Below, in pieces: positions 23 through 35,836 of a stretch of 64,000 nucleotides of DNA. The notes below the pieces were generated by a model that saw only the letters and a program-made list of their open reading frames with translations, was not told where the DNA came from and made no database searches. Source of the DNA: Enterobacteria phage XTG1; the sequence record KT184316.1. One strand, 5' to 3'. Both the position numbers and the translations under genes were made by a program. The first letter of the stretch is position 1, and every line of letters begins with the position of its first letter.

Positions 23-97
23 GTTCCAGTAGACAAAACGGTAAAGTCACCACTCTTTCAAAGTGGATATTTGAGGGTTCAAATCCCTTCTGGAACG
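23..97 (+). tRNA. tRNA-Glu (anticodon TTC)
   Basis: Manual cloverleaf: acceptor gttccag/ctggaac, anticodon loop ctttcaa, T-loop ttcaaat, CCA follows. Confidence 0.7.
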
Positions 98-192
98 CCA
101 GTTTTGACAGAAGACCAATTACAGCAAACTTAATCTTATTCATCTGAAGGTAAATCGGACAAAGAAGAGATTTGGTCTGGTCATTAAGAATT

Positions 193-264
193 GCGGGTAT
201 AGAGAAAGGGCGTCTCACATGTCTCATTAGCATGGTATCGGCAGGTTCGACTCCTGCACCCGCC
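193..264 (+). tRNA. tRNA with CAT anticodon (Met or Ile2), slightly atypical
   Basis: Acceptor gcgggt/acccgc, D-stem gaga/tctc, anticodon loop ctcatta, T-arm gcagg-ttcgact-cctgc; position 37 is T. Confidence 0.5.
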
Positions 265-347
265 TCCAATTTTGCAGAAGACCGTTTACAGCAACAAAAT
301 ACTTTTTGCGGATAAAAGAAAAAAAACACGGTCTGGCAATGTATTAA

Positions 348-421
348 GGTTAGGAAGCACATAAGGTATGTGCGGTCGCCTGTTAAGCGAATGGCACAGG
401 GTTCGAATCCCTGACTAACCG
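348..421 (+). tRNA. tRNA-Asn (anticodon GTT)
   Basis: Acceptor ggttagg/actaacc, D-stem gcac/gtgc, anticodon loop ctgttaa, T-arm caggg-ttcgaat-ccctg, CCA encoded. Confidence 0.7.
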
Positions 422-432
422 CCAAATTAAAT

Positions 433-517
433 GTGTCGTTATCCCGTAGATGGTAGCGGTGGGGACTGTAAATCCCTTGTCATTGAGACTCGGTAGGTTC
501 GACTCCTACACGGCACA
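433..517 (+). tRNA. tRNA-Tyr (anticodon GTA), long variable arm
   Basis: 85 nt; anticodon stem-loop gggga-ctgtaaa-tccct; T-arm gtagg-ttcgact-cctac; CCA encoded. Confidence 0.65.
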
Positions 518-526
518 CCAAATAAA

Positions 527-601
527 GGTTATGTAGTTTAATCTGGTTAAAATACTCCCCTGTCACGGGAGATGATGAGGGTTCAAATCCCTTCGTAACC
601 G
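527..601 (+). tRNA. tRNA-Asp (anticodon GTC)
   Basis: Acceptor ggttatg/cgtaacc, anticodon stem-loop ctccc-ctgtcac-gggag, T-arm gaggg-ttcaaat-ccctt, CCA encoded. Confidence 0.7.
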
Positions 602-840
602 CCAAATTATAATAAGTATTTCAAAATGATGTTTGAGAGGGCTATTTTAGCCCCTCCCTTAAAGAGTTCTTACGAGTATTCTTTAAAGGAGCAGAAGACC
701 AAATTCAGCAAGTACGTATGATATTTTCAAGCCAATTTAATTTTGAAAAAATTTATAAAACTTGGTCTGGCTCAACAATTTTACAGAAGACCGTTTACAG
801 CAAAACTTAAACAATCTATTTCTCCGGTAAAGAAAAGGCG

Positions 841-884
841 AAGGTTCGATTCCTTCACTCGGCAGATGTCGAGTTGGTGTAATG
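841..884 (+). pseudogene. tRNA-like fragments in permuted order (3' half directly followed by a 5' half); possible pseudo-tRNA or split/permuted tRNA
   Basis: aaggttcgattcctt-cactcggca (T-arm plus 3' acceptor strand) lies 3 nt upstream of gtcgagt-tg-gtgtaatggtagcac (5' acceptor strand plus D-arm); the two acceptor strands are complementary; no complete cloverleaf found. Confidence 0.3.
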
Positions 885-917
885 GTAGCACTTAAGATGA
901 TAAACAACGGTCTGGTA

Positions 918-1059
918 ATTATCTTTGTAGATAAGTTATTAAGCTTACCTGTGAGTATGCGACCACAAAGGGTGAAAGGGTAAATTCTAGATTTAAACCC
1001 AAAAAGGCACATCGCTACAGACCTTAAGCAAGTCTGGGTAGCTTATCTACAAAGATAAT
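918..1059 (+). ncRNA. Long hairpin element closed by an 18-bp perfect inverted repeat; candidate small structured RNA in the tRNA cluster
   Basis: attatctttgtagataag at 918-935 is the exact reverse complement of cttatctacaaagataat at 1042-1059; 106-nt interior. Confidence 0.35.
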
Positions 1060-1065
1060 TTAATG

Positions 1066-1137
1066 GAAGTGTAGCAGAATGGTGATGCGGCAGACTTTTA
1101 ATCTGACAGGCGATGGGTTCGAATCCCTCCACTTCTA
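1066..1137 (+). tRNA. tRNA-Lys (anticodon TTT)
   Basis: Acceptor ggaagtg/cacttct, anticodon loop cttttaa, T-loop ttcgaat, CCA encoded. Confidence 0.6.
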
Positions 1138-1218
1138 CCAAATTCACCCTTAACTGAGAAACACCTGCGCGGCTGGAAACACCCACTCAACAGTTTCTCT
1201 AACTAGGGTACTTATTCT

Positions 1219-1292
1219 GGTTCAGTCGCAGATAAGGTAATGCAAGGGTCTCATAAGCCCTATGAATGTGGGTTCGATTCCCATCTGAACCT
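1219..1292 (+). tRNA. tRNA-Met (anticodon CAT)
   Basis: Acceptor ggttcag/ctgaacc perfect, anticodon stem-loop agggt-ctcataa-gccct, T-arm gtggg-ttcgatt-cccat. Confidence 0.7.
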
Positions 1293-1296
1293 CCAA

Positions 1297-1369
1297 GCTG
1301 GTATAGTTAAGAAGGTTATAACACTCCCCTGATAAGGGAACATCGGTGGTTCGATTCCACCTACCAGTA
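1297..1369 (+). tRNA. tRNA-Ile (anticodon GAT)
   Basis: Anticodon stem-loop ctccc-ctgataa-ggga, T-arm ggtgg-ttcgatt-ccacc, CCA encoded. Confidence 0.65.
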
Positions 1370-1387
1370 CCAATTTCAATAAAGTTG

Positions 1388-1416
1388 TTGACATTGAGAT
1401 GTGACTACTTTATAGT
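1388..1416 (+). promoter_or_regulatory. Sigma70-like promoter (TTGACA, 17-bp spacer, TATAGT) inside the tRNA cluster
   Basis: ttgaca at 1388-1393, 17-nt spacer, tatagt at 1411-1416. Confidence 0.5.
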
Positions 1417-1618
1417 AACCTTAGTTTTCGTTGCGTAGCGTCTATTTTGCAAATTTAAAATAAATGCAAACGACAATGTTTTTCTGGCAGTAGCTTGATA
1501 GGCTAAACACCAGTGAGGTCTTCCAATCCCTCATCAAAGAATTTGGCGTACTCGCCCACGGTATGATTAATAAGGTGGGCATCTTTAAGGGCTTTCTAAG
1601 AGAGTCTTTAAAGATAAT

Positions 1619-1692
1619 GCACCCTTAGTTCAATTGGATAGAGCAACGGTCTTCTAAATCGTTAGTTACAGGTTCGAATCCTGTAGGGTGTA
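1619..1692 (+). tRNA. tRNA-Arg (anticodon TCT)
   Basis: Acceptor gcaccct/agggtgt, anticodon stem-loop acggt-cttctaa-atcgt, T-arm acagg-ttcgaat-cctgt, CCA encoded. Confidence 0.7.
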
Positions 1693-1837
1693 CCAAATAG
1701 TTAGCAGATTACTTAGACGGCCTTAGTGGGTCTTCCTGTAGGGAGGTGGTCTGTATCTCATGTTTTCCAGAACATGTAAATAATCTGAGAAGAAGCTTGA
1801 CAGTGTTGAGATAACAGGGTAAGCTTCGAATTATAAT

Positions 1838-1917
1838 ATGGGACGATGTTAAGACTCTAAGGCATGAGCAACGGCCTCCAAAACCGTTTCAAAGGGGTTC
1901 AACTCCTCCGTCCCATG
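1838..1917 (+). tRNA. Atypical tRNA-like gene, possibly tRNA-Trp (anticodon CCA) with an extended D region
   Basis: Perfect acceptor atgggac/gtcccat, T-loop ttcaact, GCCA after; loop ctccaaa on stem acgg/ccgt; about 7 extra nt between acceptor and anticodon stem. Confidence 0.4.
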
Positions 1918-1933
1918 CCAAAGTCTTATTAGG

Positions 1934-2021
1934 GGTAGGTAGCGGCTAATGGTAGCCAAACTGTCTTGAAAACAGTTGCCACTGTAGAGATACGGTGAGG
2001 GTTCGACTCCTTTACTTACCG
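1934..2021 (+). tRNA. tRNA-Ser (anticodon TGA), type II with long variable arm
   Basis: 88 nt; acceptor ggtaggt/acttacc; anticodon stem-loop actgt-cttgaaa-acagt; T-arm gaggg-ttcgact-ccttt; flanked by inverted repeat cttattagg/cctaataag. Confidence 0.65.
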
Positions 2022-2176
2022 CCTAATAAGATTTACTCCGTCCATGCTTGTTCGCATTGTCGGTTTATCCCTCGTGTATTGTCGTACACTGTCAAAGCAC
2101 CTAGTAGGTGTCACGGAGAAGAGATAATATCAAGCTCTCCAAAGGTTCTAGTCACCGGATTAAACAAGACTATGCA

Positions 2177-2198
2177 AAGACCTAAATAGGTCTTTTTA
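2177..2198 (+). terminator. Hairpin plus T-run, terminator-like
   Basis: aagacct-aaat-aggtctt followed by ttttt. Confidence 0.35.
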
Positions 2199-2276
2199 GA
2201 GGGCTTCTAAGGTTATTACAGCTTGTTGTGGAGCCTTGTTGCTTAGGTTCTTAGAAGTTCTCTAAAAAGATTTAAT

Positions 2277-2350
2277 GCACCTATAGCCCAACTGGTAGAG
2301 GCAGCAGACTTAGAATCTGCTCAGTGTGAGTTCGAATCTCTCTAGGTGTA
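2277..2350 (+). tRNA. tRNA with TAG anticodon (Leu-type) but short variable arm
   Basis: Acceptor gcaccta/taggtgt, anticodon stem-loop gcaga-cttagaa-tctgc, T-loop ttcgaat, A73, CCA encoded; 74 nt. Confidence 0.55.
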
Positions 2351-2360
2351 CCAAATTAAT

Positions 2361-2433
2361 GCAGGTGTAGCAAAATGGTTATGCGGCTGACTCTTAATCA
2401 GTAAGACGATGGGTTCAATTCCCTCCACCTGTA
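2361..2433 (+). tRNA. tRNA-Lys (anticodon CTT)
   Basis: Acceptor gcaggtg/cacctgt, anticodon loop ctcttaa, T-loop ttcaatt, CCA encoded. Confidence 0.6.
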
Positions 2434-2442
2434 CCAAACAAT

Positions 2443-2515
2443 GGGGTCATAGTTTATATGGTTAAAATTCGAGTTTTGCAAACTTGGGAACCGAGTTCAA
2501 TTCTCGGTGACTCCA
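2443..2515 (+). tRNA. tRNA-Ala (anticodon TGC)
   Basis: Acceptor ggggtca/tgactcc with G3:U70; anticodon stem-loop cgagt-tttgcaa-acttg; T-arm ccgag-ttcaatt-ctcgg; CCA encoded. Confidence 0.65.
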
Positions 2516-2524
2516 CCAATTAGT

Positions 2525-2596
2525 GCATCCATAGTTTAAACGGGAAAATTACAGTCTTCCAAACTGAGGTTGAGGGTTCGATTCCCTCTGGATGCT
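2525..2596 (+). tRNA. tRNA-Gly (anticodon TCC)
   Basis: Acceptor gcatcca/tggatgc perfect, anticodon loop cttccaa, T-arm gaggg-ttcgatt-ccctc, CCA encoded. Confidence 0.7.
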
Positions 2597-2606
2597 CCAA
2601 ATTAAT

Positions 2607-2679
2607 GCTCCTATCGTATAATTGGTTATTACGGTTGCCTTGTAAGCAACTTATCAGGGTTCGAGTCCTTGTGGGAGCA
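2607..2679 (+). tRNA. tRNA-Thr (anticodon TGT)
   Basis: Acceptor gctccta/tgggagc, anticodon stem-loop gttgc-cttgtaa-gcaac, T-arm caggg-ttcgagt-ccttg, CCA encoded. Confidence 0.7.
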
Positions 2680-2778
2680 CCAATTCAGAGGTCAAGTGAA
2701 AGACCGCTTTGAGTCAACTGAAGACCGTAACAAATTCCACGGAGTTGAGTTAGCGGCACAACTCCAGACCTCTTTCAT

Positions 2779-2850
2779 ACTCGCTTAGTTTATATGGTAA
2801 AACATCACCCTTACAAGATGAAGAAAAAGGTTCAAGTCCTTTAGTGAGTA
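2779..2850 (+). tRNA. tRNA-Val (anticodon TAC)
   Basis: Acceptor actcgct/agtgagt, D-stem gttt/aaac, anticodon loop cttacaa (one C-A mismatch in stem), T-arm aaagg-ttcaagt-ccttt, CCA encoded. Confidence 0.6.
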
Positions 2851-2854
2851 CCAT

Positions 2855-2929
2855 GTTCCAGTATCCCAATTGGCAGAGGATGCAAGCTCAAACCTTGTAT
2901 TAGTGACGGTTCGAATCCGTCTTGGAACA
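2855..2929 (+). tRNA. tRNA with CAA anticodon (Leu-type) but short variable arm
   Basis: Acceptor gttccag/ttggaac, D-loop aattggcaga, anticodon stem-loop gcaag-ctcaaac-cttgt, T-arm gacgg-ttcgaat-ccgtc, A73, CCA encoded. Confidence 0.55.
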
Positions 2930-2937
2930 CCAATTTT

Positions 2938-3010
2938 GCAGGATTAGTTCAAATGGAAAGAGCAACAGTCTACGAAGCTGTTAATAGGGGTTCGAATCCC
3001 TTATCCTGCG
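2938..3010 (+). tRNA. tRNA-Arg (anticodon ACG)
   Basis: Acceptor gcaggat/atcctgc perfect, anticodon stem-loop acagt-ctacgaa-gctgt, T-arm agggg-ttcgaat-ccctt, CCA encoded. Confidence 0.7.
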
Positions 3011-3030
3011 CCAGATAAAAAGGTGATACT

Positions 3031-3273
3031 ATGCAAACATTAACAGTAGTTGAACATGAAAACTGTGAGAGTATTGAGTTTGTCAGGGTCATTGGTGTTG
3101 AACACCACATTTTCTTAAAAGTGGGATACTTATGTGACCCCGCTAGAGTAGAAAGATTTATACGTGATTGTTTTGGTGGTAGACATCTGAAGAGTGTTAT
3201 TTTTGAGACAGTTTTACCAGAAGGTTTAGAAACGAATAATAACATTTACCTCCTTACGAGGATTAGACAATGA
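3031..3273 (+). CDS. Hypothetical protein (80 aa) embedded in tRNA cluster
   Basis: ORF with RBS aaggtga 7 nt upstream of ATG; stop overlaps next start (ATGA). Confidence 0.5.
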   Translation: MQTLTVVEHENCESIEFVRVIGVEHHIFLKVGYLCDPARVERFIRDCFGGRHLKSVIFETVLPEGLETNNNIYLLTRIRQ

Positions 3274-3827
3274 GATACTTAAAGTATGCTTCATGGATTT
3301 TCTTAGCTTTGTTAGAGCCATTTGCAGCAATCTTAGCAGTTATCTTAGCACCTTTTGTAGTTCCATTCTACAGTGAGAAGAAAGGACACTTACCTTTCGG
3401 GTTCAGATGGATGGAGACATATGACAACCCAATTGATGGTGATGAAGGTCACTTTAAAAGATGGGCTAATATTAGATGGATTGGTAAACTAGGCGTCTAC
3501 ATGCAAAGAGTCGGATGGCTCTGGAGAAACAAAGCTTATAACTTCTCTTACCATGTATTAGGAAGAGATGTAAAAGATGTTACTAAGTGGAAAGGTAATA
3601 TCAACGTAAGTTCTGACCCTGAAGATAATCAGACTGGTTATCTCCTAATGTGGAACAGTAATGCTTGGGGATTATTCGCCTTTATCCCATCAATTAAAGT
3701 CTTTGGTAAACAGTTTTACTGGAGAATTTATATTGGATGGAAACTAAAAAGTGTTGTCCCAGAAGAAAGAGCATTCTCAAGGGAAAGAGTTATGTTGGCA
3801 TTCTTTATTCATCCACTGAGAAAGTAA
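3270..3827 (+). CDS. Hypothetical membrane protein (185 aa)
   Basis: RBS gagga upstream; N-terminal hydrophobic stretch WIFLALLEPFAAILAVILAPFVVPF; translationally coupled to upstream ORF. Confidence 0.55.
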   Translation: MRYLKYASWIFLALLEPFAAILAVILAPFVVPFYSEKKGHLPFGFRWMETYDNPIDGDEGHFKRWANIRWIGKLGVYMQRVGWLWRNKAYNFSYHVLGRDVKDVTKWKGNINVSSDPEDNQTGYLLMWNSNAWGLFAFIPSIKVFGKQFYWRIYIGWKLKSVVPEERAFSRERVMLAFFIHPLRK

Positions 3828-3835
3828 AGATTTAA

Positions 3836-3908
3836 AGGGGATTAGTTTACAAGGTTAAAACCTCGGTCTTTGAAATCGAAGAAGTTGGTTCAATTCCAAC
3901 ATCCCCCG
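3836..3908 (+). tRNA. tRNA-Gln (anticodon TTG)
   Basis: Anticodon stem-loop tcggt-ctttgaa-atcga, T-arm gttgg-ttcaatt-ccaac, CCA encoded. Confidence 0.65.
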
Positions 3909-3913
3909 CCAAT

Positions 3914-3989
3914 GCTCCATTACTCCAATTGGCAGAGAGGCCAGACTTAAAATCTGTGTTATGTATCGGTTCGAATCCGATATGGAGTA
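3914..3989 (+). tRNA. tRNA with TAA anticodon (Leu-type) but short variable arm
   Basis: Acceptor gctccat/atggagt, D-loop aattggcaga (paralog of 2855-2929), anticodon loop cttaaaa, T-arm atcgg-ttcgaat-ccgat, A73, CCA encoded. Confidence 0.55.
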
Positions 3990-3997
3990 CCAAATTT

Positions 3998-4070
3998 AGC
4001 GGTATAGCATAACTGGCAATGCAACAGTCTCTGAAGCTGTCCTATTAAGGTTCAAATCCTTATGCCGCTG
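3998..4070 (+). tRNA. tRNA-Gln (anticodon CTG)
   Basis: Acceptor agcggta/tgccgct, anticodon stem-loop acagt-ctctgaa-gctgt, T-arm taagg-ttcaaat-cctta, CCA encoded. Confidence 0.6.
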
Positions 4071-4104
4071 CCACTTCTAAGGATTCTTACGAGAGTCCTT
4101 AAAT

Positions 4105-4177
4105 GTGGCCTTATCATAAATGGTAATGACCCATGCTGTGAACATGGTCTATACGGGTTCAAATCCCGTAGGTCACC
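4105..4177 (+). tRNA. tRNA-His (anticodon GTG)
   Basis: Acceptor gtggcct/aggtcac, anticodon stem-loop ccatg-ctgtgaa-catgg, T-arm acggg-ttcaaat-cccgt, CCA encoded. Confidence 0.7.
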
Positions 4178-4185
4178 CCAATTTA

Positions 4186-4260
4186 TAGTCCAAGTAGCTT
4201 ATATGGTTAAAGCGCGTGTCTGAAAAACATGAGAAGAGGGTTCAAATCCCACTGGACTAC
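4186..4260 (+). tRNA. tRNA-Phe (anticodon GAA)
   Basis: Acceptor tagtcca/tggacta perfect, anticodon stem-loop cgtgt-ctgaaaa-acatg, T-loop ttcaaat. Confidence 0.65.
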
Positions 4261-4278
4261 CAATTTCAAAGGTGCTTA

Positions 4279-5013
4279 ATGAAAGAGATGACAGAACAAG
4301 GTAAGGAGATTTTTAATCTCTTAAAAACCGGTAGAGGGTTTTCTAATCCCCTTATTACTGGTGCAGCAGTTCTCGGTGGAACCGTAGCTGCCTCTACATC
4401 ACTTGTAAGTTCTATTAGCTCTGTAACAGACCCTACAATGAAGGAGAAACTTGTTGCTGCTGGACTTACAACAGTCCTTCTAAACAGCTTTACAACAAGC
4501 CTTACAAGCACTACAGCGACTACTAAGACCTTAACAGACTATGGTCAAAAGTCTATTGATGAGTTTTCATCACGTATGCAGGTAGCAAAGGGGTATTCCA
4601 ATGTTATGGGTGCAGCAGGGGAACAAGTTGGCTGTACACCGTTTAGTGGTATTATGGGCGTTGCTACAGAATATGGTCAAAAAGCTATTGACACAATTAA
4701 CAGTGCACTAGATGTCGTTAATGATGTATTAAGTGACTTACAAGATGCTATTGACAAAGGTCTTGATACTATTTCTGATTTAGCTAACCAAGCTGTTAGT
4801 AAGATTAATGAAGGTATTTCGAAGATTACAGCTTATGCAGATGAAGTTGTGCAGATGATTGAAGAAGAAGCTGCTCTTATTGCAGAGTACCTTAAAACGA
4901 ATATCAATGGGTTCTTAGCAGGTATCTTACCAGACTGGTTTGATGATGCTTGTAAAACTGGTGTGATTGACACTATTGCAACACCAGAAATGAAGAACGC
5001 ATTACAGAAATAA
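4279..5013 (+). CDS. Hypothetical protein (244 aa, Ser/Thr/Ala-rich); start refined to ATG 4279
   Basis: Track ORF 4216-5013 begins inside tRNA-Phe; in-frame ATG at 4279 has RBS aaagg upstream (MKEMTEQ...). Confidence 0.55.
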   Translation: MKEMTEQGKEIFNLLKTGRGFSNPLITGAAVLGGTVAASTSLVSSISSVTDPTMKEKLVAAGLTTVLLNSFTTSLTSTTATTKTLTDYGQKSIDEFSSRMQVAKGYSNVMGAAGEQVGCTPFSGIMGVATEYGQKAIDTINSALDVVNDVLSDLQDAIDKGLDTISDLANQAVSKINEGISKITAYADEVVQMIEEEAALIAEYLKTNINGFLAGILPDWFDDACKTGVIDTIATPEMKNALQK

Positions 5014-5014
5014 T

Positions 5015-5104
5015 GGAAGATTAACCCTAAAAGGTAAGGGAGCAGTTTGCTAAACTGCCAGTAGCTGAGAAATCGGTGTACCAGTTCAAGTCTGGTATCT
5101 TCCT
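5015..5104 (+). tRNA. tRNA-Ser (anticodon GCT), type II with long variable arm
   Basis: 90 nt; acceptor ggaagat/atcttcc perfect; anticodon stem-loop gcagt-ttgctaa-actgc; T-arm accag-ttcaagt-ctggt; CCA encoded. Confidence 0.7.
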
Positions 5105-5111
5105 CCAATTT

Positions 5112-5184
5112 GAATCCGTGACAGAAATGGCTATGTGCCTGTCTGCAAAACAGGTTTATAAGGGTTCGAGTCCCTTCGGATTCT
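5112..5184 (+). tRNA. tRNA-Cys (anticodon GCA)
   Basis: Acceptor gaatccg/cggattc perfect, anticodon stem-loop cctgt-ctgcaaa-acagg, T-arm aaggg-ttcgagt-ccctt, CCA encoded. Confidence 0.7.
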
Positions 5185-5349
5185 CCAAGTTATTTTACTC
5201 TCTCTCAATTAAAATAATAATAATGCCCTGCTATAAGTATTCTTCCTTTCGCTACCGAAGAGTATTTTTAGACAGGGCTTTTTTACAGAGCTATACTTTA
5301 TAAGAAGACTTATACAGTATGTCTCTGACGTACATTGTGGTTTCTCCTT

Positions 5350-33076: not shown

Positions 33077-33517
33077 TTAGAAAGGTTTTCTACGTTGCTT
33101 GTTAATGTTAGCTTTCATAGCAGCTAAATGGTTTTGCTGTTCAATCAGTCGTGAGCGTTCTTGATGGCTAAGTGCCATAGTGTTCACATTCTCAATCGCT
33201 TGAGTGGCTTGCTTTAAAGCTCGACCAATCTTGCCAGACATTTTACGTTTTGCAATAGTTGCTTGATGCTTAGGTTCAACCACACGATAACCAACACCCA
33301 TTGAAGCAACCAGATAAATCTTCTCTTCTTTAAGAAGCTTCTCAATAAACTTCTCAAGTCGGTTTAGACGTGTAAGCGCATAAGCCTTCATTTCATCTTC
33401 GTACTTAACAATGTCACCTTGATAAGTTGGCTTCACAATACCTAAGAAGGTGTCCATCTCAGAATGTGATACAGTGTCACCGTAACTGAACTTTGCTGCT
33501 AATGCTTTTGTATTCAT
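33077..33517 (-). CDS. Hypothetical protein (146 aa)
   Basis: Intact ORF flanked by the composite repeats. Confidence 0.5.
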   Translation of the reverse strand: MNTKALAAKFSYGDTVSHSEMDTFLGIVKPTYQGDIVKYEDEMKAYALTRLNRLEKFIEKLLKEEKIYLVASMGVGYRVVEPKHQATIAKRKMSGKIGRALKQATQAIENVNTMALSHQERSRLIEQQNHLAAMKANINKQRRKPF

Positions 33518-33519
33518 AA

Positions 33520-34125
<606 letters not shown>

Positions 34126-34194
34126 TTAGTTGATTGTTAAGTTGTTTGTAAAGAACCCTCAATAGAAGACTCTTTAGAAACTTGGTAGATTTTT

Positions 34195-34440
34195 AATGTG
34201 GCTACTACCATCCACCCATACCTTACCGAACCTTACCCTACCCTACCAAAACGCACCTAACCTAACCGGACACTACCTTATTAAAAGACCCTGTTTAAAG
34301 GCCTTTTAAAAAGGTAAGTCTCATTTTAATGTAGCTGAGACTAACTACCCATACTTTACCTGACCGAACTAGACCCTACCTCACCAGACATAACCGCGCC
34401 AAACCTTACCGCGCCATACATCACTTAAAAACCCTCTTAA
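34195..34440. repeat. Composite intergenic repeat, copy B
   Basis: gctactaccatcc, CCTTACC/CCTACC/CCTAACC array, ccttattaaaagaccctgtttaaaggccttttaaaaaggtaagtctcattttaatgtagctgagactaactaccc nearly identical to copy A. Confidence 0.6.
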
Positions 34441-34511
34441 AAGACTCTTAAGTGATGCTGGTGAGTACCCGTTGGTTTATGCTGCTCAGTATACTCACCA
34501 AATTTTCTATG

Positions 34512-34700
34512 TCAACAACTTTCTAATAAAGTTTTATGAAGATTTTGCTTAACAACCCGCCTCACATGCCTATGCTCTTTCTTAATAAAGAGTGACCTCT
34601 TCTTGATAGAGCGCCTATTCTTGTAAGTATTACTAGGATACTTATCATGAACCGGACAACAACTCCCCGGATTTGTAAACTTGATAATCTCTCTTTTCAC
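34512..34700 (-). CDS. Small highly basic protein (62 aa)
   Basis: K/R-rich ORF coupled to ligase gene. Confidence 0.4.
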   Translation of the reverse strand: MKREIIKFTNPGSCCPVHDKYPSNTYKNRRSIKKRSLFIKKEHRHVRRVVKQNLHKTLLESC

Positions 34701-35836
34701 TATTCATAATCCCTAATAACTAGCCCGACAGGGAACTGTAAAGAACCCTTACGAGTCATCTTCTGGAACTGTACCGTTAAAGGTTTCCCGATAAACTCTT
34801 CAGGATGCTCAGCAAGATACTGTTTCTTCTCATGAGTAGTCTTCCATGAGACATCTACAAAGACGTTAGGAAGAGTCTCTACAACGAACTTACCGTGGCC
34901 ACGCTTATCAGTCTTTACACCAGTCACTTTAAACTCTTCAGTGTGCATCTTCTTGTGCTTAATCAAGAAGTATGAACGGTGACAACACTCATAGAATGAG
35001 TCTTCAGAGATTGAACGGTACATTGCACCTTCAAACTTAGCCTCAACCCACTTATCATGAGCTTCATCAAATTCTTCCCAAGAGTTCACACGGATAGTCT
35101 GTACAGGAACCACTCTACAGGTATCACCAAGCTCAACAATGGGTGAATTATCAATAACTTCACGACGCTCAGGCCAAGATTTTGAATTGTCACAGATATC
35201 ATACCAGTAGAATTTAAGAAGGTGGCGGTCTGGATTGTCAGCATTCTTAATCATAGAGACAATATCTTCTAAGTCCCAACCATGAGCATAAATCTCACCA
35301 TCAAAGTCTTCAACTTGTGGATGTAATTTAAGCAACAAAAGCAAATCTGGAATTAGTTCTGCTGGAACGTTGTAAACAGTATTCTCACGAGAATAAGCCG
35401 TGAAGTTAACTAAATCAGCATCTCTTGAAATTCTACAACGTACACCATCCAGTTTCGGTTGAGCATCAGCAGGGAACTTCAGATACTTTGCATGACTAAC
35501 CTTTGCAGCATCATGAGCAAGCTGTACACCTACCTTCTCAGTATTCTGTGCAGACTCTTTTGTGTAAGCATAACCTTTACGGTCAACTTGCTTTTTATAC
35601 TTAGCAGCAACTTCAAAGAGAGCTTGCTGTTCAGCATTACGCTCATTCTTTTTACCGATGTTCTTAGGCTCTGCTGTGTACTCTTCAAACATCATCTTAC
35701 CATTTTCTTTACCATAGGTTGTAATAACTTTGTCACCTACAGCAACGCATGACCAGACGTTGAAGGAACCATCTTTATTTTGTTTGTATAGGATTGTCAT
35801 TTTTAACCTCTGAGTGATACCAAGTATTGCAAGCAT
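34700..35836 (-). CDS. ATP-dependent DNA ligase
   Basis: Nucleotidyltransferase motif I KLDGVR, motif III-like FDGEIY, EGAMYRS and LIKHKK downstream. Confidence 0.7.
   Translation of the reverse strand: MLAILGITQRLKMTILYKQNKDGSFNVWSCVAVGDKVITTYGKENGKMMFEEYTAEPKNIGKKNERNAEQQALFEVAAKYKKQVDRKGYAYTKESAQNTEKVGVQLAHDAAKVSHAKYLKFPADAQPKLDGVRCRISRDADLVNFTAYSRENTVYNVPAELIPDLLLLLKLHPQVEDFDGEIYAHGWDLEDIVSMIKNADNPDRHLLKFYWYDICDNSKSWPERREVIDNSPIVELGDTCRVVPVQTIRVNSWEEFDEAHDKWVEAKFEGAMYRSISEDSFYECCHRSYFLIKHKKMHTEEFKVTGVKTDKRGHGKFVVETLPNVFVDVSWKTTHEKKQYLAEHPEEFIGKPLTVQFQKMTRKGSLQFPVGLVIRDYE

What the first reader, a model, noticed from the sequence alone, without database searches (positions are those of the whole stretch)
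830..1065. Permuted tRNA-like halves and an 18-bp perfect inverted repeat between tRNA genes
At 841-884 a T-arm plus 3' acceptor strand (aaggttcgattcctt-cactcggca) is followed 3 nt later by a 5' acceptor strand plus D-arm (gtcgagt-tg-gtgtaatggtagcac) whose acceptor strands are mutually complementary, i.e. the two tRNA halves are in reversed order. Immediately downstream, attatctttgtagataag (918-935) and its exact reverse complement (1042-1059) close a 106-nt loop. Possibilities: a degenerate or rearranged tRNA, a circularly permuted tRNA gene, or a stable small RNA; phage tRNA clusters are known to carry non-tRNA stable RNAs.
Basis: seen in the sequence. Interest (0 to 1): 0.55.

Follow-up and report, generated by a model that had tools for sequence, protein, structure and literature searches.

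The report
Phage tRNA-mimic Y RNA cluster
The "reversed tRNA halves" are the tRNA-like core of a small non-coding RNA of the Y RNA (YrlA) type, one of at least four related RNAs that this Felix O1-like phage encodes just downstream of a protein predicted to have the Ro60 ring fold, and neither this RNA family nor this protein-RNA pairing turned up in Rfam or in the papers searched.

Summary
Window 840-891 holds a T arm, a closed 7-bp acceptor-like hairpin and a D arm in that order, and 918-935/1042-1059 is an exact 18-bp inverted repeat.

It is neither a decayed tRNA nor a permuted tRNA gene. The order V hairpin, T arm, closed acceptor stem-loop, D arm, enclosed by a terminal stem, is the published architecture of YrlA-type bacterial Y RNAs.

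Four paralogous RNAs (105-183, 272-339, 689-773, 781-918) share a covarying terminal stem followed by UUACAGCAA. The inverted-repeat element carries a miniature copy of this module.

The same stem-plus-CAGCAA module, often with a tRNA-like core, sits next to DUF2828 genes in most of 75 distant phage contigs. It is strongly strand-specific.

The usual Ro60-binding motif (GNCGAA) and a Rfam YrlA hit are absent here, so I rate it a new variant of a known kind. Binding, expression and function are inferred, not shown. A partial resemblance to Dictyostelium Class I RNAs is an open lead.

The parts
781..918 (+). Unit U4, the finding itself: a tRNA-like Y RNA. Outer helix TTAC 781-784 / GTAA 915-918. 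Internal loop AGA 785-787 opposite G 914. Stem P1 AGACCGTT 788-795 / AACGGTCT 906-913. Motif TACAGCAA 796-803. V hairpin 819-835. T arm 840-856. Closed acceptor-like stem-loop 857-874. D arm 877-891.
   Evidence: The minimum-free-energy fold gives exactly this architecture. On six orthologues, 100% of the cells of the proposed pairs are paired, against 39-52% when the register is slid, and three acceptor-stem pairs change on both sides. The acceptor stem has three versions: ACTCGGC/GTCGAGT, ACACGT/GCGTGT and ACCCTTC/GAAGGGT.
105..183 (+). Unit U1, a short Y-like RNA: TGAC-AGA-AGACCAA-TT-ACAGCAA ... TTGGTCT-G-GTCA. It starts 4 nt after tRNA-Glu and ends 8 nt before tRNA-Met.
   Evidence: Pattern search: 4 matches in 64 kb, and 0 of 100 shuffles reach 4. 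Fold. Conserved in Mooglevirus and Suspvirus relatives.
272..339 (+). Unit U2, a short Y-like RNA: TTGC-AGA-AGACCGT-TT-ACAGCAA ... ACGGTCT-G-GCAA, between tRNA-Met and tRNA-Asn.
   Evidence: The outer helix is TTGC/GCAA here and TTAC/GTAA in Sf13, a compensatory change. This is the best sub-threshold Rfam hit to Dicty_Class_I_RNA, 26.5 bits.
689..773 (+). Unit U3, a short Y-like RNA: GAGC-AGA-AGACCAA-ATT-CAGCAA ... TTGGTCT-G-GCTC, immediately 5' of U4.
   Evidence: The outer helix becomes G-U (GAGC/GTTC) in Sf13 and Michonne. That pair is valid only as RNA on this strand.
917..1060 (+). Inverted-repeat element: a structured RNA of about 145 nt with an 18-22 bp closing stem and three inner hairpins. 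It fills the spacer between U4 and tRNA-Lys (1065).
   Evidence: z = -6.3. On six sequences, 8 of 47 predicted pairs keep pairing through changes on both sides, in the closing stem and in inner hairpins.
1014..1042 (+). Miniature copy of the stem-plus-motif module inside the inverted-repeat element: GCTAC-AGAC-CTTAAGCAA-GTCT-GG-GTAGC. In other lineages it reads CTAC-AGACC-CTTTAGCAA-GGTCT-GC-GTAG.
   Evidence: Read from alignment A3. The stem pair at columns 114:130 changes A-U to G-C.
23..1140 (+). Context: the tRNA genes that flank and separate the units (Glu 23-100, Met 192-268, Asn 348-424, Tyr 433-520, Asp 527-604, Lys 1065-1140). All are on the same strand, and no + strand terminator is predicted.
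   Evidence: ARAGORN; promoter and terminator scan. The Ro60-fold gene ends about 226 nt before window position 1 (KhF3 33352-34767, reverse strand).

Best explanation
Window 781-918 encodes a Y RNA of the YrlA (tRNA-mimic) type. It is one of four, probably five, small non-coding RNAs that the phage transcribes together with its tRNA array. The array lies immediately downstream of a gene for a protein predicted to have the Ro60 fold (Pfam DUF2828 + DUF7788: a helical-repeat ring plus a vWA domain with an intact MIDAS motif).

Each RNA is closed by a terminal stem ([A/U]G-N5-6 ... N5-6-C[U/A]-G) that is followed on its 5' strand by U(U/A)CAGCAA. I infer that this module is the docking site for the Ro60-like ring. 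It would play the part of the GNCGAA or GGUCCGA helix of canonical Y RNAs.

In U4 the variable 'cargo' is a tRNA-shaped domain: a variable or anticodon-like hairpin, a T arm, a 7-bp acceptor stem closed by a loop, and a D arm. By analogy with YrlA this domain should be recognised by tRNA enzymes such as TruB, DusA and RNase P. It could tether the particle to tRNA-handling or RNA-decay proteins such as PNPase, or present a tRNA decoy.

The neighbouring tRNAs would supply the RNase P and 3'-trimming cuts that release the units. The inverted-repeat element at 917-1060 is a further structured RNA of the same cluster and carries a miniature copy of the module.

Shown here: the sequence anatomy, covariation, strand specificity, linkage to the gene across distant phages, and the predicted Ro60 fold of the protein. 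Inferred: transcription, processing, protein binding and biological role.
For: 1. Architecture. The fold of U4 matches the published YrlA layout: 5' strand, V, T arm, closed acceptor stem-loop, D arm, 3' strand, encoded within 4 kb of Ro60 on the same strand (PMC4201824). A CUAU (YUAY) sits just 5' of the V hairpin, as in YrlA.

3. Paralogues. There are four units with the same module. Their outer helices covary: TGAC/GTCA, TTGC/GCAA, GAGC/GCTC, TTAC/GTAA. Their inner helices read AGACCAA/TTGGTCT or AGACCGT/ACGGTCT.

4. Orthologues. Acceptor-stem covariation and G-U substitutions are seen across Felixounavirus, Mooglevirus and Suspvirus.

5. Generality. In 75 phage contigs whose DUF2828 protein is only 38-47% identical, a strict descriptor (ACAGCAA plus 7 Watson-Crick pairs) gives 59 hits on the gene strand, 4 on the opposite strand and 4.2 in shuffles, and 49 of the 59 lie within 1 kb of the gene. 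A relaxed descriptor gives 156, 33 and about 25, and hits 55 of 75 loci. Positions the descriptor did not fix are nevertheless conserved: the spacing of the stem G, 9 nt before the C of CAGCAA, in 86 of 88; U at -2 in 83 of 88; A at -10 in 69 of 88.

6. tRNA-like cores in other phages. L023, L025, L028, L034, L035, L053, L075, L083 and L088 hold such cores, all inside a terminal stem of this kind, 10 of the 11 with a CAGCAA-type motif (L053:6445 has the more deviant UUGCAGCAU). ARAGORN, run on four of these loci, does not call those of L034, L053, L075 or L083 as tRNAs.

7. Rfam. The YrlA model hits two of these cores: L034:4865-4927 at 39.2 bits, E 4e-5, and L075:4715-4780 at 26.7 bits.

8. 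One clear operon. L034 reads promoter, two short RNAs, one tRNA-like RNA, ribosome-binding site, DUF2828 ATG.
Against: No expression, processing or binding data exist for any of these RNAs.

The Rfam YrlA model does not hit U4 itself, even at E <= 10 in a 161-nt search.

The GNCGAA(N)G motif that defines YrlA and YrlB is absent.

The protein has no Pfam TROVE match and no sequence-level PDB match, so its kinship with Ro60 rests on a predicted fold.

Twenty of the 75 distant loci show no hit with my descriptor.

The link between module and protein is by co-occurrence only. The module could instead be a processing or stability signal.
Confidence: 0.8

Rival explanations
1. A circularly permuted tRNA gene of the Cyanidioschyzon or Thermofilum type. 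The transcript would be circularised and then opened at the acceptor end to give a functional tRNA.
For: The 3' half precedes the 5' half and the acceptor strands are complementary. In Michonne and Moogle the loop between them reads G-CCA-AACA. Several unrelated phages have NCCA there too, so the acceptor loop may well be opened by tRNA-processing enzymes.
Against: The ends are joined by an 8 + 4 bp helix with a 3x1 internal loop, not by a bulge-helix-bulge motif, and the enterobacterial hosts are not known to have a splicing endonuclease (my own knowledge). The candidate anticodon loop is not conserved: CCGGUAA, CUGGUAA and AGGGUAU, with no U33 in two of the three. The window's copy has no CCA, although every tRNA in this array encodes one. 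The acceptor sequences share no identity elements. The terminal stem and motif are shared with units that have no tRNA part.
Confidence: 0.03
2. A decayed or rearranged tRNA pseudogene left by recombination in the tRNA array.
For: It lies in a tRNA array that carries indels and homing endonuclease genes in relatives. The Rfam tRNA model gives a partial 22-bit match.
Against: It is conserved in three genera, with compensatory changes that preserve a 6-7 bp hairpin. The same arrangement recurs beside DUF2828 genes in unrelated phages, with 0 hits on the opposite strand.
Confidence: 0.03
3. The acceptor piece of a two-piece (permuted) tmRNA.
For: ARAGORN calls a permuted tmRNA at 1133-1881 in Moogle. 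The call begins at this element and gives the tag ANDNVFLAVA. The Moogle genome paper reports an ssrA found with ARAGORN (PMC4319497).
Against: That call spans three tRNA genes (Lys, Met, Ile). ARAGORN makes no such call in the window, Sf13, Michonne or SUSP1. There is no G3-U70 pair, and the loop lacks CCA in most lineages. The Rfam tmRNA models do not hit 781-918.
Confidence: 0.02
4. For the inverted-repeat element only: it is mainly an RNase III-type processing hairpin or spacer that separates U4 from tRNA-Lys, not a functional partner of the Ro60-like protein.
For: It has an 18-22 bp near-perfect duplex. A similar long hairpin lies directly 5' of tRNA-Leu at 2185-2276, z = -5.9. Phage tRNA and early transcripts are often cut by RNase III (my own knowledge).
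Against: The inner hairpins are conserved with covariation, and one of them reproduces the stem-plus-AGCAA module. A mere cleavage site does not need this.
Confidence: 0.25
5. The units are real RNAs that act independently of the DUF2828 protein, for example as tRNA decoys for host anticodon nucleases or as stabilising or processing elements for the tRNA operon.
For: They are embedded in the tRNA array. The tRNA-like core could be bound or cut by tRNA-targeting enzymes (inference).
Against: Tight, strand-specific linkage to the DUF2828 gene in very distant phages: 49 of 59 strict hits lie within 1 kb of it, some upstream and some downstream. Most units have no tRNA-like part.
Confidence: 0.1

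Closest known systems
YrlA-type bacterial and phage Y RNAs with Ro60/Rsr (Chen et al. 2014, PMC4201824; Rfam RF02553)
   Same: A terminal stem formed by the 5' and 3' ends. An internal tRNA-like domain in the order V, T arm, closed acceptor stem-loop, D arm. A YUAY before the V hairpin. A position within 4 kb of the ring protein's gene on the same strand. Several Y RNAs per locus, only one of them tRNA-like, co-transcribed with tRNAs. A 7-bp acceptor stem as in M. smegmatis YrlA, which RNase P cleaves and which then gains CCA.
   Different: The GNCGAA(N)G motif is replaced by [A/U]G-stem + U(U/A)CAGCAA. The partner protein belongs to Pfam DUF2828/DUF7788, not TROVE. The Rfam model misses this copy and reaches only 27-39 bits (threshold 69) on relatives in other phages.
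Thermus phage phiLo Ro60 with Yrl1 and Yrl2 (PMC12135203)
   Different: The phiLo RNAs were picked by their CGAA motif and are not described as tRNA-like. Here the motif is CAGCAA and the locus lies inside a tRNA array.
Dictyostelid Class I RNAs (Rfam RF01414; PMC7919456)
   Same: A short terminal stem starting at a conserved G preceded by AA, the motif (CC)UUACAGCAA directly 3' of the 5' strand, a variable interior, and a 3' strand followed by CUG(U). The short phage RNAs are also about 60 nt long. These are the only Rfam families besides tRNA that touch the units: 26.5, 19.7 and 12.8 bits for U2, U1 and U4, and 24.4 bits for L078.
   Different: All scores fall below the threshold of 41.5. 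The spacing differs by one nucleotide. Three short RNAs in L073 are not hit at all. Class I RNAs are eukaryotic, have their own promoter element and are known to bind an RRM protein. I could not test whether dictyostelids encode a DUF2828 protein.
Circularly permuted tRNA genes and two-piece tmRNA genes
   Same: The gene order is T arm and 3' acceptor strand first, 5' acceptor strand and D arm second. Some relatives have NCCA after the 3' acceptor strand.
   Different: No bulge-helix-bulge junction, no conserved anticodon, no tag reading frame and no alanine identity pair. The two ends are held by a conserved helix that is shared with RNAs lacking any tRNA part.

Membership tests
YrlA-type Y RNA (RF02553; Chen et al. 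2014) | Encoded within about 4 kb of the Ro60 orthologue, on the same strand | tested here: met
YrlA-type Y RNA (RF02553; Chen et al. 2014) | tRNA-like domain in the order V, T arm, closed acceptor stem-loop, D arm, enclosed by a stem formed by the RNA's ends | tested here: met
   Minimum-free-energy fold, pair counts with covariation and the descriptor scan.
YrlA-type Y RNA (RF02553; Chen et al. 2014) | GNCGAA(N0-1)G motif near the 5' end (the presumed Ro60 contact) | tested here: not met
   The 5' strand reads UUACAGAAGACCGUUUACAGCAA. It contains no GNCGAA; a different conserved module takes its place.
YrlA-type Y RNA (RF02553; Chen et al. 2014) | Match to the Rfam covariance model at the gathering score (69 bits) | tested here: not met
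   No hit on 770-930 at E <= 10. Relatives in L034 and L075 reach 39.2 and 26.7 bits over model positions 24-84.
YrlA-type Y RNA (RF02553; Chen et al. 2014) | Partner protein has a recognisable TROVE domain | tested here: inconclusive
   No Pfam TROVE hit and no sequence-level PDB hit, but the predicted structure has a full-length Ro60 fold.
YrlA-type Y RNA (RF02553; Chen et al. 2014) | Bound by the Ro60 orthologue in vivo, and carries pseudouridine 55 and dihydrouridine made by tRNA enzymes | not testable with these tools
   Needs immunoprecipitation and modification mapping.
Circularly permuted tRNA gene | Bulge-helix-bulge motif formed by leader and trailer, for a splicing endonuclease | tested here: not met
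   The ends form an 8-bp helix and a 4-bp helix separated by a 3x1 internal loop.
Circularly permuted tRNA gene | A conserved, canonical anticodon loop (U33, purine 37) that specifies one amino acid | tested here: not met
   The loops are CCGGUAA, CUGGUAA and AGGGUAU in three lineages.
Two-piece (permuted) tmRNA | Acceptor piece ending in CCA with a G3-U70 pair, plus a coding piece with a tag reading frame | tested here: not met
   ARAGORN finds none in the window. The single call, in Moogle, spans three tRNA genes. Positions 3:70 are C-G in the window.
Dictyostelid Class I RNA (RF01414) | Short terminal stem, 11-nt motif CCUUACAGCAA next to its 5' strand, conserved AAG start and CUGU end | tested here: inconclusive
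   UUACAGCAA, AAG and CUG are present in U1, U2 and U4 (U3 reads AUUCAGCAA). The spacing differs by 1 nt and the L073 RNAs are not hit.
Dictyostelid Class I RNA (RF01414) | Match to the Rfam model at the gathering score (41.5 bits) | tested here: not met
   Best scores are 26.5 (U2), 24.4 (L078), 19.7 (U1) and 12.8 (U4) bits.

The most novel reading that the evidence does not exclude
DUF2828/DUF7788 proteins and the 'stem + U(U/A)CAGCAA' RNAs form a second, so far unrecognised branch of Ro60-Y RNA particles. Its RNA signature is the same as that of the dictyostelid Class I RNAs, an abundant RNA class of unknown mechanism that was reported to be unique to social amoebae. Those RNAs would then be the eukaryotic Y-like partners of a DUF2828 protein, a family Pfam describes, as far as I recall, as 'eukaryotes and viruses'.

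A second, independent novelty that the evidence does not exclude concerns lineages whose acceptor loop encodes NCCA. There the tRNA-like unit may be opened by RNase P and 3' trimming into a two-piece tRNA-like molecule with a free CCA end.
Probability: 0.2. Interest if true: 0.85.

Novelty: new variant of a known kind. Interest (0 to 1): 0.68.

Why it matters
Ro60 and Y RNAs are conserved from bacteria to humans, yet their functions are still poorly understood. Known bacterial and phage Y RNAs were found only beside proteins annotated as TROVE.

This locus indicates that a large phage protein family, labelled only 'DUF2828' or 'RNA-binding protein', is predicted to be a Ro60-like ring with its own family of partner RNAs. 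Those RNAs have a different docking motif but the same tRNA-mimic cargo.

The phages concerned are classical and genetically tractable (Felix O1 and its relatives on E. coli and Salmonella), and the locus sits inside their tRNA arrays. That makes several questions directly testable: what a Ro60-Y RNA particle does during infection, whether it acts on tRNAs, and whether it counters host tRNA-cleaving defences or recruits host exoribonucleases.

It also corrects annotations. The 91-aa reverse-strand 'hypothetical protein' over this region is probably spurious. So, probably, is the 'tmRNA' reported for phage Moogle.

Tried and rejected
1. Rfam at gathering and at E-value thresholds finds only tRNAs plus weak Class I hits; there is no YrlA, tmRNA or ribozyme family on 781-1060.

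2. ARAGORN calls no tRNA or tmRNA here.

3. The reverse-strand ORF 737-1012 (91 aa; annotated in AYO145A as orf047) is rejected. It is broken into stop-free stretches of at most 61 codons in all six divergent relatives.

4. A fifth descriptor hit at 3314-3523 (8-bp closure) is rejected because it lies inside a real ORF, 3270-3827.

5. Sequence searches of the protein against PDB, as a single sequence and as a profile, found nothing. Only the fold comparison worked.

6. MAFFT could not align the distant tRNA-like RNAs well enough to build a covariance model, so I used explicit descriptors with strand and shuffle controls. Pair counts on descriptor hits would be circular and were not used. Covariation is reported only for orthologues found by homology.

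7. The Class I model was tested on more phage RNAs. It misses the three short RNAs of L073, which lowers the homology reading.

8. I could not find out whether Dictyostelium has a DUF2828 protein. The AlphaFold database library was unavailable, Avesson et al. 2011 and Burroughs & Aravind 2016 are not held, and literature searches for DUF2828 and UCP015417 returned nothing relevant.

9. The supplementary tables of Chen et al. 2014 are not held. That Felix O1-like phages were not in their set is therefore inferred from their TROVE-based selection and from the list of phages given in PMC12135203.
Full report
WHAT IS THERE

The window is a Felix O1-like phage. Positions 600-1300 are 100% identical to Enterobacteria phage KhF3 and 95-99% identical to about 180 Felixounavirus genomes. 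Positions 23-5187 are an array of 25 tRNA genes, all on the + strand.

- T arm GAAGG-TTCGATT-CCTTC, 840-856
- ACTCGGC, 857-863
- loop AGAT, 864-867
- GTCGAGT, 868-874; the two strands form a 7-bp helix
- TG, 875-876
- D arm GTGT-AATGGTA-GCAC, 877-891

The 18-bp inverted repeat at 918-935/1042-1059 is exact and extends to 22 nt. Neither ARAGORN nor Rfam calls a tRNA here. The Rfam tRNA model aligns only 807-857, as an anticodon arm, variable loop and T arm, at 22 bits.

THE ELEMENT IS ONE OF FOUR PARALOGOUS UNITS

Reading outward from the tRNA-like part, the flanks pair: AGACCGTT (788-795) with AACGGTCT (906-913), and TTAC (781-784) with GTAA (915-918). TACAGCAA (796-803) follows the 5' strand.

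The pattern CAGAAGACCNNTTNCAGCAA occurs four times in the 64 kb, all on the + strand between tRNA genes, and 0 of 100 shuffles give four matches. Each copy is closed downstream by NNGGTCTGG plus four further bases.

The outer 4-bp helix covaries between copies: TGAC/GTCA, TTGC/GCAA, GAGC/GCTC, TTAC/GTAA. The inner helix reads AGACCAA/TTGGTCT or AGACCGT/ACGGTCT.

The units are U1 105-183, U2 272-339, U3 689-773 and U4 781-918. All four are kept in Mooglevirus and Suspvirus relatives. Those relatives add further compensatory or G-U changes, and G-U pairs are valid only as RNA on this strand. RNAfold recovers the same closing stems.

U4 HAS THE YrlA ARCHITECTURE

The minimum-free-energy fold of 781-919 has a terminal stem, a 5-bp/7-nt hairpin (819-835), the T arm, the closed acceptor-like hairpin and the D arm.

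Chen et al. 2014 define YrlA RNAs by exactly this order: V, T, a closed 'AS' stem-loop in the acceptor position, then D. The whole is enclosed by the paired ends of the RNA, and the gene lies within 4 kb of the Ro60 orthologue on the same strand (PMC4201824). So the 'reversed halves' are the normal layout of a known class of tRNA mimic.

Orthologues support the structure. The acceptor-like stem exists in three versions:
- ACTCGGC-AGAT-GTCGAGT in KhF3 and pSJ21
- ACACGT-TACG-GCGTGT in Sf13, Sf17 and SUSP1
- ACCCTTC-GCCAAACA-GAAGGGT in Michonne and Moogle

On six orthologues every cell of the 28 proposed pairs is a standard pair. With the partner slid by 1-3 columns only 39-52% are. Three pairs change on both sides.

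THE PARTNER GENE

In KhF3 the array is preceded, on the same strand, by a 471-aa 'hypothetical protein' (33352-34767). Its stop codon lies about 226 nt before window position 1 and about 1 kb before U4.

Pfam gives DUF2828 and DUF7788. PHROGs calls the family 'RNA-binding protein'. NCBIfam has nothing, and there is no sequence-level match in PDB.

THE ASSOCIATION IS GENERAL

I fetched 75 phage contigs whose DUF2828 protein is only 38-47% identical to the Felix-type protein.

A strict descriptor (ACAGCAA preceded by a strand that finds 7 Watson-Crick partners downstream) gives 59 hits on the gene strand, 4 on the other strand and 4.2 in shuffles. Of the 59, 49 lie within 1 kb of the gene, on either side of it.

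A relaxed descriptor gives 156, 33 and about 25, and covers 55 of the 75 loci. Among 88 distinct near-gene candidates, positions the descriptor left free are conserved: the stem G sits 9 nt before the C of CAGCAA in 86, U at -2 in 83, A at -10 in 69. Lengths fall into a short class of about 33-68 nt and a long class of about 90-250 nt.

A separate descriptor for 'T arm + closed hairpin + D arm' gives 27 hits on the gene strand, none on the other strand and 0.2 per shuffle. All eleven non-Felix hits with usable flanks lie inside a terminal stem of this kind, ten of them with a CAGCAA-type motif (L053:6445 has the more deviant UUGCAGCAU), although the descriptor did not ask for one. ARAGORN was run on four of the loci concerned and does not call those in L034, L053, L075 or L083 as tRNAs.

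The Rfam YrlA model recognises two of them: L034 at 39.2 bits, E 4e-5, and L075 at 26.7 bits, both over the tRNA-like core of the model.

L034 shows the whole system in 340 nt: promoter, two short RNAs, one tRNA-like RNA, ribosome-binding site and the DUF2828 start codon.

THE INVERTED-REPEAT ELEMENT

Positions 917-1060 fold far better than shuffles (z -6.3). In the five relatives aligned with the window the interior is largely replaced, but the closing stem and the inner hairpins keep pairing through changes on both sides: 8 of 47 pairs on six sequences.

The 3'-most inner hairpin, GCUAC-AGAC-CUUAAGCAA-GUCU-GG-GUAGC (1014-1042), is a miniature of the unit module. In other lineages it reads CUAC-AGACC-CUUUAGCAA-GGUCU-GC-GUAG.

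I read the element as a fifth structured RNA of the cluster. A role mainly as an RNase III-type processing hairpin remains possible. A comparable long hairpin precedes tRNA-Leu at 2185-2276.

HOW IT PROBABLY WORKS (INFERRED)

No + strand terminator is predicted across 1-2400. U1 and U2 begin 4 nt after a tRNA 3' end and stop 8 nt before the next tRNA. The units are therefore probably released from the polycistronic transcript by the tRNA-processing enzymes.

By analogy with Ro60-Y RNA particles, the terminal stem and CAGCAA motif would dock on the Ro60-like ring. The variable interior would select partners. For U4 these would be tRNA-recognising proteins or exoribonucleases such as PNPase, which both Deinococcus and phiLo Ro60 particles engage.

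The 7-bp acceptor stem is the feature that makes M. smegmatis YrlA an RNase P substrate, and that RNA then gains CCA. Michonne and Moogle, and contigs L053 and L083, encode NCCA right after the 3' acceptor strand. Opening of the loop is therefore plausible in those lineages. The window's loop (AGAU) has no CCA.

WHAT IT IS NOT

- Not a permuted tRNA gene. There is no bulge-helix-bulge junction and no conserved anticodon loop.
- Not a pseudogene. It is conserved, with covariation, across genera and recurs in unrelated phages.
- Not a tmRNA. The ARAGORN call in Moogle spans three tRNA genes, and it probably explains the 'ssrA' reported for that phage.
- Not the product of the 91-aa reverse-strand ORF. 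That ORF is not conserved.

COMPARISON AND NOVELTY

It works like a YrlA Y RNA but fails two membership tests: the GNCGAA motif and the Rfam model. Its partner is a different sequence family. The published searches started from TROVE-annotated genomes. The phages named in later work are mycobacteriophages, CcrColossus, Bacillus phage G and phiLo. I found no paper linking DUF2828 to Ro60 or to any RNA. I rate it a new variant of a known kind.

An unexpected lead concerns the Dictyostelium Class I RNA family, the only non-tRNA Rfam family that touches the units. It shares the AAG start, the short stem, UUACAGCAA and the CUG end. All scores are below threshold, the spacing differs by one base, and other phage members are not hit. 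I give a real relationship about 0.2 probability.

Noticed in passing
window 1838-1921 (+): A cloverleaf-like RNA that ARAGORN does not call. It has an 8-bp acceptor stem (AUGGGACG/CGUCCCAU), an anticodon-type arm with a 9-nt loop (CCUCCAAAA), a T arm and a 3' GCCA. The only hit is a weak 23-bit match to tRNA-Sec. It may be an unusual or degenerate tRNA.
   Followed up: partly
window 1141-1218 (+): A 78-nt hairpin (z -4.3) fills the spacer between tRNA-Lys and tRNA-Met. Moogle and SUSP1 have only a 4-6 nt spacer there. An indel of about this size may explain why many relatives cover only 89% of the query, in two pieces (not checked).
   Followed up: partly
window 2185-2276 (+): A long, very stable hairpin (z -5.9) lies directly 5' of tRNA-Leu. 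The layout is the same as that of the inverted-repeat element before tRNA-Lys, so this may be a recurring processing signal or small RNA.
   Followed up: partly
window 1388-1416 (+): A near-consensus sigma-70 promoter (TTGACA-17-TATAGT) lies inside the tRNA array. It is followed by about 200 nt of leader before tRNA-Arg, and that leader gives weak sub-threshold tmRNA-model hits.
   Followed up: no
L008 (Citrobacter phage Moogle) 1133-1881: ARAGORN reports a 'permuted tmRNA' that starts at the U4 T arm and GCCA and spans tRNA-Lys, tRNA-Met and tRNA-Ile. The published Moogle genome note lists an ssrA found with ARAGORN. This is probably a false positive caused by the tRNA-like Y RNA.
   Followed up: yes
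window 737-1012 (-): A 91-aa ORF, annotated as a hypothetical protein in AYO145A and wV8, overlaps U3, U4 and the inverted-repeat element. It is interrupted in all six divergent relatives and is probably not a gene.
   Followed up: yes
L017:4276-4372, L018:3139-3234, L025:1264-1375, L035:4732-4832: A second conserved cargo domain (...CCUUUCUGGAGGGGAAAGCAAAAACUCGCC...) recurs inside the same terminal stem-plus-motif frame in several unrelated phage contigs. It suggests further sub-classes of these RNAs.
   Followed up: no
L034:10696-10922 and L078:3253-3443: Group I intron hits (71.5 and 40.9 bits) occur in two of the DUF2828-bearing phage contigs. They have no evident link to the finding.
   Followed up: no
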